Source: the human T2T-CHM13v2.0 reference genome, Homo sapiens
Length of the DNA: 64,000 bases
Reading direction: 5' to 3'
Assembly: GCA_009914755.4 (NCBI GenBank)
Contig: CP086569.2
Span: forward strand, 384,001-448,000
A program made the position numbers and the translations under genes. The notes under the pieces are model-generated. The model was given only the letters and a program-made list of their open reading frames with translations. It did no database searches and had not been told where the DNA came from. Below, in pieces: positions 53,930-63,152 of the stretch. Position 1 is the stretch's first letter. Each line of letters opens with the position of its first letter.

Positions 53930-55305
53930 AGATAGAGGGAGAAAGAGGAGAAACAAGAGGAGGAGGAGGCTGGAGGAGGAGAAGGAGGAGGAAGAGAAAG
54001 AGGAGGAGGTGGAGGAGGAGGGAGACAGAGGAGGAGGAGGGAGTGGTTGGAGGAGGAGAAAGAGAAGGATGAGGAAGAGAAAAAGAAGGAGGGGGAGGAG
54101 GAAGAAGAGGAGGAGGGGAAGGAGGAGAAAGAGGAGGAGAGGGAGGAAGAGGAGGAGGCTGGAGGAGGAGAAAAAGGAGAAAGAGAAAAAGGAGGAGGGA
54201 GAGGAGGAGGGGAAGGAGGAGGGAGAGAAAGAGGAGGAGAGGGAGGAAGAGGAGGAGGCTGGAGGAGGAGGAAAAGGAGGAGGGAGAGGAGGAGGGGAAG
54301 GAGGAGGGAGAGAAAGAGGAGGAGAGGGAGGAAGAGGAGGAGGCTGGAGGAGGAGAAAAAGGAGAAAGAGAAAAAGGAGGAGGGAGAGGAGGAGGGGAAG
54401 GAGGAGGGAGAGAAAGAGGAGGAGAGGGAGGAAGAGGAGGAGGCTGGAGGAGGAGGAAAAGGAGAAAGAGAAAAAGGAGGAGGGAGAGGAGGAGGGGAAG
54501 GGGGAGGGAGAGAAGTAGAAGCAGGAAGAGTGGGGAAGGAGGAGGTTGGAGAAGGTGGAGGAGGAAGAAGAGAAACAGGAAGAAGAGGAGGAAAAAGGGG
54601 AGGAGGAGGGAGAGGAGGAAAGAGAGGAGGAGGGGAAGGAGGAGGAAGAGAAAGAGGAGGAGGGGGAGAAGCAGGGAGAGGAGGAGGAGGAAGAGAAAGA
54701 GGAGGAGGGAGAGGAGGAGGGAGAGGAGGAGGAAGAGAAAGAGGAGAAGGGAGAGGAGGAGGGGGAGGAGGAGGGAGAGGAGGAGGAGGAAGAGAAAGAG
54801 GAGGAGGGAGAGGAGGAAGAGCCTGGAGGAGGAGGAAGAGAAAGAAGAAAAGGAAGAGGAGGGGAAAGAAGAGGCTGGAGAAGATGGAGGAGGAAGAAGA
54901 GAAAGAGGAAGAGGAGAGGGGAGAGGATGAGGGGAAGGAGGAGGAAGAGAAAGAGGAGGAGGGAGAGGAGGAAGAGGCTGGAGAGGAGAAGGAGGAAGAG
55001 AAAGAGGAGGAGGGGGAGGAGGGGAAGGAAGAGGTTGGAGAAGGTAGAGGAGGAAGAAGCGAAAGAAAAGGAGGGGGAGGAGAGAGGGGAGGAGAAAGAA
55101 CAGGAAGAGGAGAGGGAGAAGGAGGAACAAGAGAAGGGGGAAGAGGGGAGGAGGAAAAGATGAGAGGAGGAGAAGGAAGCGGAAGAGAAAGAGGGAGAGG
55201 TGGAGAAGGGGGAGGAGGAGGGGAAGGAGGAGGAGGAAGAGGAGGAGGAGAAGAAGGTGGAGGAGGGAGAAAAGGGAAGAGGGGGGAAGAGGGGGGAGAG
55301 GGACT
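53930..55305. repeat. ~1.4-kb polypurine (GGA/GAG/GAA)n tract with higher-order ~85-100-bp periodicity ('gaggaggctggaggaggag...' blocks at ~54143, 54244, 54329 and 54431)
   Basis: Almost pure A/G on the + strand; repeated 'ggaggaggctggaggaggagaaaaaggagaaagagaaaaaggaggagggagaggaggaggggaaggaggagggagagaaagaggaggagagggaggaagag' modules. Confidence 0.9.
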
Positions 55306-56247
55306 CAGGAAAACAGGTCCCCCTCACCCCCATCCCACCGTAATAAAGACATGACGCCTTTTTATGCTGAGAAAACATCAAGCTGTGTTTCTCCTTCCCC
55401 AGAGACACTTCGCAGCCCCTCTTGGGATCCAGCGCAGCGCAAGGTAAGCCAGATGCCTCTGCTGTTGCCCTCCCTGTGGGCCTGCTCTCCTCACGCCGGC
55501 CCCCACCTGGGCCACCTGTGGCACCTGCCAGGAGGCTGAGCTGCAAACCCCAATGAGGGGCAGGTGCTCCCGGAGACCTGCTTCCCACACGCCCATCGTT
55601 CTGCCCCCCGCTTTGAGTTCTCCCAGGCCCCTCTGTGCACCCCTCCCTAGCAGGAACATGCCGTCTGCCCCCTTGAGCTTTGCAAGGTCTCGGTGATAAT
55701 AGGAAGGTCTTTGCCTTGCAGGGAGAATGAGTCATCCGTGCTCCCTCCGAGGGGGATTCTGGAGTCCACAGTAATTGCAGGGCTGACACTCTGCCCTGCA
55801 CCGGGCGCCCCAGCTCCTCCCCACCTCCCTCCTCCATCCCTGTCTCCGGATATTAAGACGGGGCGCTCAGGGGCCTGTAACTGGGGAAGGTATACCCGCC
55901 CTGCAGAGGTGGACCCTGTCTGTTTTGATTTCTGTTCCATGTCCAAGGCAGGACATGACCCTGTTTTGGAATGCTGATTTATGGATTTTCCAGGCCACTG
56001 TGCCCCAGATACAATTTTCTCTGACATTAAGAATACGTAGAGAACCAAATGCATTTTCTTCTTAAAAAAAAAAAAAAACCAAAAAAAAAAAAAAAAACCA
56101 AAAAACTGTACTTAATAAGATCCATGCCTATAAGACAAAGGAACACCTCTTGTCATATATGTGGGACCTCGGGCAGCGTGTGAAAGTTTACTTGCAGTTT
56201 GCAGTAAAATGACAAAGCTAACACCTGGCGTGGACAATCTTACCTAG

Positions 56248-60040: not shown

Positions 60041-60815
60041 CTGTGTGTGTGTTTTAAAATAACAAAACTGCTAAACTCCATGGGAATTACTCAAAATGAA
60101 TATCAGGGAAAGGTTTCCTTCGTTACTTAAACAGATGCCTTTGCAACCTACTATTTTATTTTATTATGTCATTTCTATGGGAAGAGATTATTTAAAAGAA
60201 GAAAAGGGGCCCCAGGTTTTCTCTCCTAAATTTCTAGCCCCAAACCTTCGTGATATTGAAAAGCAAGTATATCACAAAAGACTGTCTTCTACAAATTATA
60301 TTTTTAATTGCAGTGTGCGTGTGTGTTTTAAAATAACAAAACTGCTAAACTCCATGGGAATTAGTCAAAATGAATATCGGGGAAGGGTTTCCTTCGATAC
60401 TTAAATAGGTACCTTTGCAACCTACTATTTTATTTTATTATGTCATTTCTATGGGAGGAGATTATTTAAAAGGAGGAGCTCACGTTTTTCGTACGAAATT
60501 TCTAGCCCCAACCCTCCATGATACTGAAAAGCAAGTATATCAGAAAAGACTGTGTTCTACAAATTATGTTTTTAATTGCACTGTGTGTGTGTGTGTGTGT
60601 GTGTGTGTTTTAAAATAACAAAACTGCTAAACTCCATGGGAATTACTCAAAATGAATATCAGGGAAAGGTTTCCTTCGTTACTTAAACAGATGCCTTTGC
60701 AACCTACTATTTTATTTTATTATGTCATTTCTATGGGAGGAGATTATTTAAAAGGAGGAGCCCACTTTCTTGCTTTTAAATTTCCAGCCCCAACCCTTCT
60801 GGACATAACTCGTCT
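60041..60815. repeat. Tandem repeat, ~281-bp unit x ~2.7, each unit starting with a short (GT)n
   Basis: '(gt)n ttttaaaataacaaaactgctaaactccatgggaattactcaaaatgaatatcagggaaaggtttccttcgttacttaaacagatgcctttgcaacctactattttattttattatgtcatttctatgggaagagattatttaaaag...' begins at ~60047, ~60326 and ~60609. Confidence 0.85.
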
Positions 60816-62477: not shown

Positions 62478-62666
62478 TTACACAAAAAACCAAACCAAAC
62501 AAAACAGGTGCTGAGGTGATATTGAAAGATAAGATTGCTTAGAATATGGAGGCTAATGTTTGGAGGTGACTTTTGTAAATTGATCTTCATCCCTGGCAGT
62601 CCTTTGGTTGAAGGAGCCTGGATTTTAGTGTAAGATTTGGCTGGTTTGTTATAACATGTGGATCCC

Positions 62667-62667
<1 letters not shown>

Positions 62668-62745
<78 letters not shown>

Positions 62746-62919
62746 TTTCTTTCTTTCTTTCTTTTCCTTTCTTTCTTTTCCTTTCTTTCTTTCTCTCTCT
62801 TTCTTCTTTCCTTCCTTCTTTCTTTCTTTCTTTTTTCTTTCTCTCTTTTCTTTCTTTCTCTCTCTCTCTCCCTCCCTCCCTCCTTCCCTTCCTTCCTTCC
62901 TTCCATCTTTCTTTCTTTT

Positions 62920-62962
<43 letters not shown>

Positions 62963-63009
62963 CTCTTTCTTTCTTTCTTTCTTTCTCTCTTTTTCTTTCT
63001 TTTCTTTCT

Positions 63010-63056
<47 letters not shown>

Positions 63057-63080
63057 CTCTTTTCTTTCTTCCTTCTTTTT
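62668..63080. repeat. (TTTC)n/(CTTT)n microsatellite with (CT)n and (CCTT)n interruptions
   Basis: 'ctttctttctttctttc...' for ~410 bp. Confidence 0.95.
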
Positions 63081-63152
63081 AAGTGAAAGCAAGTTTTTTA
63101 AGAAAGTGAAGTAATAAAAGAATGGCTACTCCAGAGGCAGAGTACCCCTTAG

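What the first reader, a model, noticed from the sequence alone, without database searches (positions are those of the whole stretch)
53930..55305. 1.4-kb nearly pure polypurine tract with ~85-100-bp higher-order modules
The + strand is almost exclusively A/G, with repeated 'gaggaggctggaggaggag...' modules at ~54143, 54244, 54329 and 54431. Tracts of this size and mirror-symmetry potential are classic H-DNA/triplex formers. It generates the 655-aa, 435-aa and 406-aa E/G/K/R-rich and S/L/P-rich ORFs in the track, which should not be read as genes. It begins at the poly-A of an Alu (53505-53925), a common seeding mechanism.
Basis: partly seen in the sequence, partly recalled or inferred. Interest (0 to 1): 0.5.

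Follow-up and report, generated by a model that had tools for sequence, protein, structure and literature searches.

The report
Non-coding GA-rich polypurine repeat array
This is an ordinary, non-coding 1.4-kb stretch of purine-only repetitive DNA in a primate (human-like) sequence, built by repeated small duplications; its long "open reading frames" are composition artefacts and its capacity to form triple-helix DNA is modest.

Summary
Positions 53930-55305 are 96.6% A/G on the + strand. They contain four near-identical modules of 100, 85, 100 and about 88 bp, and a 155-bp stretch is duplicated perfectly at a 185-bp offset.

- **ORFs are artefacts.** Stop codons need T on the + strand (A on the - strand), and both are nearly absent. 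The Glu-codon phase changes 9 times. There are no Pfam hits and no homologues.
- **H-DNA potential is overstated.** The tract meets the published H-DNA motif definition 36 times, but the longest perfect mirror arm is 12 nt. That is no longer than shuffled controls give. It is shorter than the 18-45-nt arms in the five smaller purine/pyrimidine tracts of this window, and shorter than the roughly 33-bp mirror repeat needed for detectable H-DNA in genome-wide S1-seq.
- **Seeding by the Alu A-tail is not supported.** A 7-bp target-site duplication (TTAAAGA) lies between the A-tail and the tract. The Alu therefore most likely inserted at the edge of purine-rich DNA that was already there.

My best reading is a neutral, degenerate (GGA/GAG)n low-complexity array that grew by slippage and unequal exchange and is probably length-polymorphic. 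The genomic locus could not be identified. This is a known kind of sequence, and interest is low.

The parts
53502..53925 (+). Alu element with a duplicated left monomer (left-left-right). Its A-tail is at 53912-53925.
   Evidence: Read directly from the sequence. TRF finds a 135-bp period with 2.1 copies over 53522-53808. Self-BLAST against the other Alus of the window.
53494..53500 (+). 5' copy of the putative Alu target-site duplication, TTAAAGA. It is preceded by purine-rich AAAGAAG.
   Evidence: exact 7-mer shared with 53926-53932. The 15-nt alignment matches at 12 of 15 positions. Chance with a shuffled flank is 0.8%.
53926..53932 (+). 3' copy of the putative target-site duplication, TTAAAGA. 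It lies between the Alu A-tail and the start of the polypurine tract.
53933..55303 (+). The polypurine tract. Purines are on the + strand and pyrimidines on the - strand. It is a degenerate (GGA/GAG/GAA)-type low-complexity array.
   Evidence: 96.6% purine and 55% G. The commonest trinucleotides are GAG, GGA and AGG. The longest pure (GGA)n run has only 4 units.
53933..54095 (+). 5' degenerate part, with local periodicity of about 77-83 bp. It includes one older GGCTGG landmark at 53963-53981.
54096..54514 (+). Young higher-order core. Modules of 100, 85, 100 and about 88 bp start at 54158, 54258, 54343 and 54443, forming a 185-bp super-unit. Positions 54125-54279 are identical to 54310-54464.
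   Evidence: self-alignments of 93-96% identity; no mismatch over 155 bp at lag 185.
54515..55303 (+). 3' older part. Sub-units of 42-57 bp are marked by GAAGAGAAAGAGGAG, and self-identity is 81-87%.
   Evidence: spacings of 45, 42, 57, 107, 48 and 51 bp.
54673..54821 (+). Longest uninterrupted purine run (149 bp).
54599..54786 (.). Best imperfect mirror-symmetric segment: 93-nt arms with 17 mismatches and a 2-nt spacer.
   Evidence: score 25, against 15.9+-2.1 (maximum 21) in order-2 Markov controls.
55265..55302 (+). The only canonical G-quadruplex motif (G3+N1-7 repeated four times) in the tract.

Best explanation
The tract is a non-coding, degenerate purine-only low-complexity array of (GGA/GAG/GAA)n type with a minisatellite-like higher-order structure. 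It sits in primate (human-like) DNA that is very rich in Alus and tandem repeats.

How it arose (inferred from its anatomy):
1. An old triplet-periodic purine microsatellite decayed by point mutations and small indels.
2. Blocks of about 42-57 bp, then of 85 and 100 bp, and finally a 185-bp super-unit, were re-duplicated by replication slippage and/or unequal sister-chromatid or homologue exchange.
3. This left a young core (54096-54514) inside older flanks.
4. An Alu later integrated at a TT/AAAGA site on the 5' edge. This is the kind of A/purine-rich target that the L1 endonuclease prefers (established knowledge).

What follows from composition alone:
- The + strand has almost no T and the - strand almost no A, so stop codons are nearly impossible. 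All six frames stay open without any coding function.
- There are many short H-DNA-type mirror motifs with 10-12-nt arms.
- GGA/G2-type quadruplex potential covers about half the tract.
- The extreme G-skew would favour R-loops if the tract is transcribed with the pyrimidine strand as template.
- The tract is probably unstable in length, changing in steps of 85, 100 or 185 bp.

I see no evidence that any of these properties has been selected.
For: - Composition and boundaries.
- Hierarchical repeat structure: 3-bp periodicity; 42-57-bp sub-units; 100/85-bp modules; a 185-bp perfect duplicate of 155 bp; a gradient from 93-100% identity in the core to 81-87% in the flanks.
- Non-coding: 10 Glu-codon phase blocks, and 0-3 stops per frame against about 26 expected. 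Every + frame mixes Glu/Gly with 28-52% Arg/Lys. No Pfam family. No homologue at E<=1e-5. Not present in the gene-call index.
- Alu outside the tract: the target-site duplication brackets the Alu only, and purine-rich AAAGAAG already lies upstream of the Alu.
- Context: 25% of the window is tandem arrays with TRF score of at least 300 and 24% is Alu. There are five further purine/pyrimidine tracts. The locus as a whole is therefore prone to making arrays.
Against: - No population or cross-species data could be reached, so the order of events and the length polymorphism are both inferred.
- The target-site duplication is short. It is 7 bp exact, or 12 of 15 if extended, with a chance of 0.8%.
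- The homologue search was swamped by low-complexity words (8000 candidates, none significant), so it is a weak negative.
- Transcription, splicing and ribosome occupancy could not be examined.
- The count of short mirror motifs is about 4 times that of shuffles (24 against 6.3+-2.5). PRDM9-type 13-mers are also enriched (17 against 5-9). Both could reflect function rather than repetition, although module duplication inflates both counts.
Confidence: 0.85

Rival explanations
1. Functional non-B DNA element. The tract adopts H-DNA (an intramolecular triplex) and/or GGA-type quadruplexes in vivo. It acts as a replication or transcription barrier, a fragile site or a recombination hotspot, as proposed for the 2.5-kb polypyrimidine element in PKD1 intron 21.
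For: - There are 36 H-DNA motifs by the published definition, covering 31% of the tract. The genome-wide average is about 0.16% of bases (1589 bp per Mb).
- A 188-bp imperfect mirror lies above Markov controls.
- G2-type quadruplex runs cover 47% of the tract.
- There are 17 matches to the PRDM9 13-mer CCNCCNTNNCCNC, against 5.3-8.7 expected. H-DNA motifs are reported to be enriched at PRDM9B sites (PMC11879447).
Against: - The longest perfect arm is 12 nt, no better than shuffles.
- It has the shortest arms of the six purine/pyrimidine tracts in the window.
- It is below the roughly C(TC)16 length needed for detectable H-DNA, and mirror-breaking substitutions disfavour triplexes.
- There is only one canonical G4 motif.
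- The motif counts are inflated because the modules are copies of one another.
- There are no experimental data and no conservation data.
Confidence: 0.1
2. Outgrowth of the Alu A-tail. In this reading the tract began as the poly-A of the Alu at 53502-53925, acquired G substitutions and expanded.
For: The tract starts 8 bp after the A-tail. A-tail-derived (GAAA)n/(TTTC)n tracts demonstrably exist in this same window, at 2928-3105 and 12639-12840. A-tail seeding of purine repeats is well documented, for example at RFC1 in the poly(A) tail of an AluSx3 (PMC11667243).
Against: - TTAAAGA is repeated immediately 5' of the Alu and immediately 3' of the A-tail, so the tract lies beyond the target-site duplication.
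- The A-tail itself is an intact run of 14 A.
- The tract is 55% G with GGA/GAG triplets, unlike the 75%-AT GAAA-type tails nearby.
- Purine-rich sequence already flanks the Alu on its 5' side.
Confidence: 0.1
3. Protein-coding purine-rich exon encoding a Glu/Gly/Lys/Arg-rich low-complexity domain. The analogue is RPGR ORF15, a genuine coding exon that is 97.5% purine over 1 kb.
For: Long ORFs exist on the + strand (435, 205 and 203 aa). RPGR ORF15 shows that an almost pure purine repeat can be coding (PMC6770968). An AG...GT-flanked 41-nt exon-like segment lies 100 bp downstream, at 55404-55444.
Against: - No single frame is maintained. The Glu-codon phase changes 9 times, rotating at each module boundary.
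- Every + frame contains 28-52% Arg/Lys interleaved with Glu/Gly.
- The three long + strand ORFs in the tract start at TTG or GTG.
- Duplication units of 85, 100 and 185 bp shift the frame.
- There are no Pfam hits and no homologues.
Confidence: 0.01

Closest known systems
PKD1 intron 21 polypyrimidine element (PyRE), 2.5 kb
   Same: Both are kb-scale, almost pure purine/pyrimidine tracts in non-coding human DNA. Both are mixed-sequence tracts rather than pure microsatellites, and both hold multiple mirror repeats (PMC11667243). Size and purity are comparable here: 1.4 kb at 96.6%.
   Different: [quoted passage not shown] Several of these were shown to form triplexes and to stall polymerases, and the strength of arrest scales with motif length. 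Here perfect arms are at most 12 nt and nothing has been tested experimentally. The gene context is unknown.
Long homopurine/homopyrimidine (R.Y) tracts catalogued genome-wide (Bacolla et al. 2006, NAR 34:2663; cited in PMC11667243, reference 168; the paper itself was not held)
   Same: The tract contains an uninterrupted run of 149 bp. From my own knowledge of that paper, this would place it in the class of tracts of at least 100 bp. The window holds a cluster of six purine/pyrimidine tracts, reminiscent of the clustering reported for the pseudoautosomal region (the paper's title and my own knowledge).
Alu A-tail-derived purine microsatellites, e.g. (GAAA)n, or (AAGGG)n at RFC1
   Same: It lies immediately 3' of an Alu A-tail. 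True examples of A-tail-derived tracts occur in this same window.
   Different: The tract is separated from the A-tail by the putative target-site duplication. It is G-rich and triplet-based rather than an A-rich tetramer or pentamer, and it is far more degenerate.
RPGR ORF15 purine-rich coding exon
   Same: Purine content is nearly identical (97.5% over 1 kb, against 96.6% over 1.4 kb). Both are GA-rich and repetitive, and both give Glu/Gly-rich translations (PMC6770968).
   Different: ORF15 keeps one frame, with a 351-aa glutamylation region that is 88% Glu-Gly, and it is conserved across vertebrates. Here the frame is lost 9 times and no homologue was found.
Minisatellites (VNTRs) with higher-order repeat structure
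   Same: Head-to-tail units of 85-100 bp are nested in a 185-bp super-unit, with 93-100% identity in the core. The window contains several other minisatellites.
   Different: The units are themselves low-complexity purine sequence, so the array grades into cryptic simple sequence. Length polymorphism was not tested.

Membership tests
Long R.Y (homopurine/homopyrimidine) tract | Uninterrupted purine or pyrimidine run of at least 100 bp | tested here: met
   149-bp run at 54673-54821, with further runs of 98, 98, 95 and 88 bp.
Long R.Y (homopurine/homopyrimidine) tract | Uninterrupted run of at least 250 bp (the 'longest tracts' class) | tested here: not met
   The maximum is 149 bp. There are 47 interrupting pyrimidines in 1376 bp.
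H-DNA motif (non-B DB / PMC11879447 definition) | Mirror repeat with arms of at least 10 nt, spacer under 8 nt, at least 90% AG or CT, and AT content under 80% | tested here: met
   36 motifs in 11 merged loci, covering 31% of 53905-55322 (definition).
H-DNA former (experimentally detectable) | Perfect mirror symmetry of roughly 33 bp or more, C(TC)16-equivalent, which is the minimum giving detectable H-DNA | tested here: not met
   The longest perfect arm is 12 nt (26-31 bp including the spacer), no longer than shuffles at 12.8+-2.3. The threshold is from PMC9171763. The one long mirror (93-nt arms) has 17 mismatches.
H-DNA former (experimentally detectable) | Supercoil- or pH-dependent structural transition, or S1/chemical hypersensitivity | not testable with these tools
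   This needs wet-lab or S1-END-seq data.
Alu A-tail-derived microsatellite | The repeat is continuous with the A-tail and lies inside the element's target-site duplications | tested here: not met
   TTAAAGA occurs at 53494-53500 and at 53926-53932, so the tract starts after the 3' copy. Compare 2928-3105 and 12639-12840, which run directly into Alu tails.
Minisatellite / VNTR | Tandem head-to-tail units of about 10-100 bp in multiple copies | tested here: met
   TRF gives a period of 100 with 7.6 copies. Modules are 100, 85, 100 and about 88 bp. There is a perfect 155-bp duplicate at lag 185.
Minisatellite / VNTR | Variable copy number among individuals | not testable with these tools
   No human haplotype data were reachable. 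Metagenome and prokaryotic genome scans gave no match.
Purine-rich coding exon (RPGR ORF15 type) | A single reading frame maintained through the repeat | tested here: not met
   There are 10 Glu-codon phase blocks. Each + frame is 28-52% Arg/Lys. The duplication units are not multiples of 3.
Purine-rich coding exon (RPGR ORF15 type) | Homologous proteins or a recognised domain | tested here: not met
   No hit at E<=1e-5 (a weak test because of low complexity). No Pfam family for any of 5 ORFs.
Purine-rich coding exon (RPGR ORF15 type) | Transcript, splice or translation evidence | not testable with these tools
   No expression data or human annotation are available here.
Canonical G-quadruplex cluster | Repeated G3+N1-7 motifs | tested here: not met
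   There is only one merged motif (55265-55302), despite 53 runs of three or more G.
SVA retrotransposon 5' hexamer (CCCTCT)n, read on the opposite strand | Tandem AGAGGG hexamers abutting an Alu-like region | tested here: not met
   The longest (AGAGGG)n run is 1 unit. The neighbouring element is a sense-oriented Alu with its own A-tail.

The most novel reading that the evidence does not exclude
The tract might be a self-propagating recombination or instability hotspot. It combines a dense cluster of PRDM9-type 13-mers on the pyrimidine strand (17 of the window's 24, about 2-3 times expectation) with many short H-DNA motifs. It lies inside a young higher-order repeat array, in a window where a quarter of the DNA is tandem arrays. 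Double-strand breaks targeted there could drive the unequal exchanges that create the 85, 100 and 185-bp duplications, and perhaps contribute to the exceptional repeat density of the region.
Probability: 0.08. Interest if true: 0.35.

Novelty: already known. Interest (0 to 1): 0.1.

Why it matters
It matters little as a discovery. GA-rich low-complexity polypurine tracts next to Alus are a catalogued class in primate genomes, and this one shows no sign of coding or selected function.

Its practical value is as a caution for annotation. Six-frame ORFs of 400-650 aa arise automatically here and must not be called genes. Because RPGR ORF15 is a true coding exon of the same composition, frame coherence rather than purine content should be the test.

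The tract is also a plausible length-polymorphic site that is hard to sequence. If it lies in an intron, its purine-rich (or, on the other strand, CU-rich) RNA, its R-loop potential and its modest triplex potential could locally affect transcription or replication. That remains untested.

Tried and rejected
**Locus identification failed.**
- Rfam found only an Alu-related SRP match.
- Pfam on 10 high-entropy ORFs from across the window gave nothing.
The idea that this is PAR1, prompted by the cluster of purine/pyrimidine tracts and minisatellites, stays untested.
- Full-text search for six sequence strings from the window found no paper.

**Related sequences elsewhere.**
- Exact-pattern scans of the metagenome and prokaryotic genome collections with the 3' flank and with a module found nothing. 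This is expected for primate DNA.
- The gene-call index holds none of three window ORFs. Allele comparison by that route is therefore impossible.

**Homology search.** The search with the 655-aa ORF was saturated by low-complexity words and returned nothing. I ran no further search on it.

**Identities considered and rejected.**
- SVA hexamer reading: no (AGAGGG)n run.
- RPGR ORF15 identity: no match to its C-terminal domain.
- EWS-FLI-type (GGAA)n microsatellite: at most 2 consecutive GGAA.
- G-quadruplex cluster: only one canonical motif.

**Paper not available.** Bacolla et al. 2006 (PMC1464109) is not held in the library.

Full report

Yes. Positions 53930-55305 contain 1329 purines and 47 pyrimidines, which is 96.6% A/G (G 762, A 567). 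The continuous stretch in which every 100-bp window is at least 90% purine runs 53905-55322. GC skew and AT skew both sit near +0.9 to +1.0 across it and fall back to about 0 on either side. The rest of the window is 49% purine, so the chance probability is below 1e-300.

The tract is not a pure microsatellite. The longest uninterrupted purine run is 149 bp (54673-54821). The longest pure (GGA)n has 4 units and the longest (GAA)n, (GGAA)n and (GAAA)n have 2 each. TRF sees only a weak 3-bp (GAG) periodicity, with 63% matches.

The exact 19-mer GAGGAGGCTGGAGGAGGAG occurs at 53963, 54152, 54252, 54337 and 54437, against 0 expected. Modules starting at 54158, 54258, 54343 and 54443 are 100, 85, 100 and about 88 bp long, and M1 is identical to M3. 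Positions 54125-54279 are identical to 54310-54464 over 155 bp, so the real recent unit is a 185-bp super-unit made of one 100-bp and one 85-bp module.

**2. Anatomy**

The array is hierarchical.
- A triplet-periodic purine background runs throughout.
- In the 3' half, sub-units marked by GAAGAGAAAGAGGAG recur every 45, 42, 57, 107, 48 and 51 bp. Self-identity there is 81-87%.
- In the centre, 54096-54514 is a young core with 93-100% self-identity at offsets of about 85/100, 185 and 285 bp.
- The 5' end (53933-54095) is again degenerate.

Assuming about 0.5e-9 substitutions per site per year, zero differences in 155 bp bounds the last duplication (or homogenisation) only to under about 19 Myr at 95% confidence. 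This is an inference.

**3. The Alu junction**

The upstream element (53502-53925) is an Alu with a duplicated left monomer (TRF period 135 bp, 2.1 copies) and a 14-A tail (53912-53925).

The heptamer TTAAAGA lies immediately 5' of the Alu (53494-53500) and immediately 3' of the A-tail (53926-53932). A 15-nt alignment gives 12 of 15 matches. A shuffled 5' flank gives such a junction match 0.8% of the time.

If this is the target-site duplication, the retroposed unit ends at 53925 and the tract, which starts at 53933, belongs to the pre-insertion DNA. The reconstructed empty site, ...CATAAAGAAGTTTAAAGA|TAGAGGGAGAAAGAGG..., is already purine-rich on both sides. It also resembles the TT/AAAA preference of the L1 endonuclease (established knowledge).

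So the Alu most likely landed on the edge of an existing purine tract rather than seeding it.

The window supplies its own positive controls. The (TTTC)n tracts at 2928-3105 and 12639-12840 run without interruption into the tail end of antisense Alus. They are AT-rich tetramer repeats, unlike the 55%-G triplet-based tract studied here.

**4. Coding potential**

Stop codons need T on the + strand and A on the - strand.
- The tract has 28 T and 19 C.
- The three minus-strand frames therefore have 0 stops and the plus-strand frames have 1-3.
- About 26 stops per frame are expected at window composition, and about 6 even at tract composition.

Composition alone cannot settle the question, however. 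RPGR ORF15 is 97.5% purine over 1 kb and is a real, conserved Glu/Gly-coding exon (PMC6770968). The discriminating test is frame coherence.

In this tract the phase carrying GAG/GAA codons changes 9 times, giving 10 blocks of 60-399 nt. It rotates at each GGCTGG module boundary, because the 100, 85 and 185-bp units are not multiples of three. Every + frame therefore alternates E-rich, G-rich and R/K-rich segments and is 28-52% Arg+Lys overall.

Other negatives:
- The three long + strand ORFs in the tract start at TTG or GTG.
- No Pfam family matched any of five ORFs.
- No homologue scored E<=1e-5. This is a weak test, since low-complexity words saturated the candidate list.
- The 655-aa product is not in the gene-call index.

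I conclude that the ORFs are artefacts. Expression data could not be consulted.

**5. Non-B DNA potential**

I used the published H-DNA motif definition: arms of at least 10 nt, spacer under 8 nt, at least 90% AG or CT, and AT under 80% (PMC11879447). By this definition the tract contains 36 motifs in 11 merged loci, covering 31% of its length. The genome-wide average is 1589 bp per Mb. Non-nested motifs (counted with spacers up to 8 nt) are about 4 times more frequent than in dinucleotide shuffles (24 against 6.3+-2.5).

The arms are short, though. The maximum is 12 nt, which matches the shuffle expectation of 12.8+-2.3. No arm reaches 15 nt. The five other purine/pyrimidine tracts in the same window reach 18, 28, 30, 39 and 45 nt.

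Genome-wide S1-seq found about C(TC)16 to be the minimum for detectable H-DNA, and found that substitutions breaking the mirror disfavour it (PMC9171763). For the PKD1 element, the strength of arrest scales with the number of bases in the motif (PMC11667243).

One larger imperfect mirror exists (54599-54786, 93-nt arms, 17 mismatches). It scores above order-2 Markov controls, at 25 against 15.9+-2.1.

Only one canonical G4 motif is present (55265-55302). G2-type runs compatible with GGA-repeat tetrad/heptad folds cover 47% of the tract (the structural class is cited in PMC1543642, reference 49).

Overall, this is the longest purine/pyrimidine tract in the window, but the one with the shortest perfect mirror arms. 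'Classic H-DNA former' overstates it.

**6. Context**

The window looks primate, with about 60 Alu hits covering 24% of it. It is extraordinarily rich in tandem arrays: 16.2 kb, or 25%, has a TRF score of at least 300. It carries six purine/pyrimidine tracts.

This resembles subtelomeric or pseudoautosomal DNA, where long purine/pyrimidine tracts are reported to cluster (title of Bacolla et al. 2006, cited; the paper itself was not held). I could not confirm the locus.

**7. Mechanism and verdict**

My best-supported explanation, at confidence 0.85, is a neutral, non-coding, degenerate (GGA/GAG)n low-complexity array. It grew by slippage and unequal exchange in nested steps, and an Alu later inserted at its 5' edge. 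The open frames, the short H-DNA motifs, the GGA-type quadruplex potential, the extreme G-skew and the probable length instability are all by-products of composition and repetition.
- **Shown here:** the composition, the repeat hierarchy, the loss of frame, the mirror-arm statistics and the junction heptamer.
- **Inferred:** the order of events, the duplication mechanism and the polymorphism.

Rivals:
- A selected non-B DNA or recombination element (0.1).
- Origin from the Alu A-tail (0.1; this concerns origin only).
- A coding exon (0.01).

The closest known analogues are the PKD1 intron 21 polypyrimidine element, the catalogued long purine/pyrimidine tracts, Alu-tail microsatellites, VNTRs and, as a coding contrast, RPGR ORF15.

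This is an already known kind of sequence, and interest is about 0.1.

Noticed in passing
window 2928-3127, 3657-4157, 12639-12850, 19861-20317, 62644-63092: Five further tracts are at least 90% purine or pyrimidine, mostly (GAAA)n/(TTTC)n. Their perfect mirror arms reach 18-45 nt, far more H-DNA-prone than the tract under study. Two of them (2928-3105 and 12639-12840) run directly into antisense Alu tails.
   Followed up: partly
window 53930-55305 (- strand): There are 17 matches to the PRDM9-type 13-mer CCNCCNTNNCCNC inside the tract, out of 24 in the whole window. Shuffled and Markov controls give 5.3-8.7. The count is inflated by module duplication, and its significance is unknown.
   Followed up: partly
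window 23364-24892: A 29-bp minisatellite (TGGAGAGGGGATATATGGAGAGGCTGCTC) has about 53 copies with 91% matches. It generates ORFs of 550-660 aa in several frames, another source of artefactual ORFs.
   Followed up: no
window 17852-19723, 31700-32634, 35077-36888, 47554-48483, 49063-50046, 50494-51720: There are kb-scale degenerate tetranucleotide arrays, (ATCC)n, (ATCT)n, (TGGA)n and (GATA)n, some with 19-23-bp or 143-bp higher-order periods. Together with the other arrays they make up about 25% of the window.
   Followed up: no
window 38604-40642: A 2-kb AT-rich array includes a very regular 31-bp minisatellite (39927-40605, 21.7 copies, 96% matches).
   Followed up: no
window 677-1945: A tandem array of 6-8 units of about 153-171 bp. 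Each unit is an antisense Alu fragment plus a (TTA)n run, so an Alu piece has been amplified as a minisatellite.
   Followed up: no
window 53502-53925: The Alu next to the tract has a duplicated left monomer (left-left-right, 424 bp), probably from internal unequal recombination.
   Followed up: partly
window 55343-55348 and 55404-55444: An AATAAA signal lies 40 bp after the tract. A 41-nt segment there is flanked by a polypyrimidine run plus AG on one side and GTAAGC on the other, which looks like an exon. If real, the tract would sit about 100 bp upstream of a 3' splice site. No annotation or expression data were available to check this.
   Followed up: no
window 55650-56105: A unique GC-rich segment ends in an A-rich tail (A15CCA17CCA6 at about 56066-56105). 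It may be the 3' end of an unidentified retroposed sequence. There was no Pfam hit on its ORF.
   Followed up: partly
window 60042-60797 and 10971-11202: A 282-bp unit is repeated 2.7 times and a 46-bp unit 5 times, both in otherwise unique sequence.
   Followed up: no
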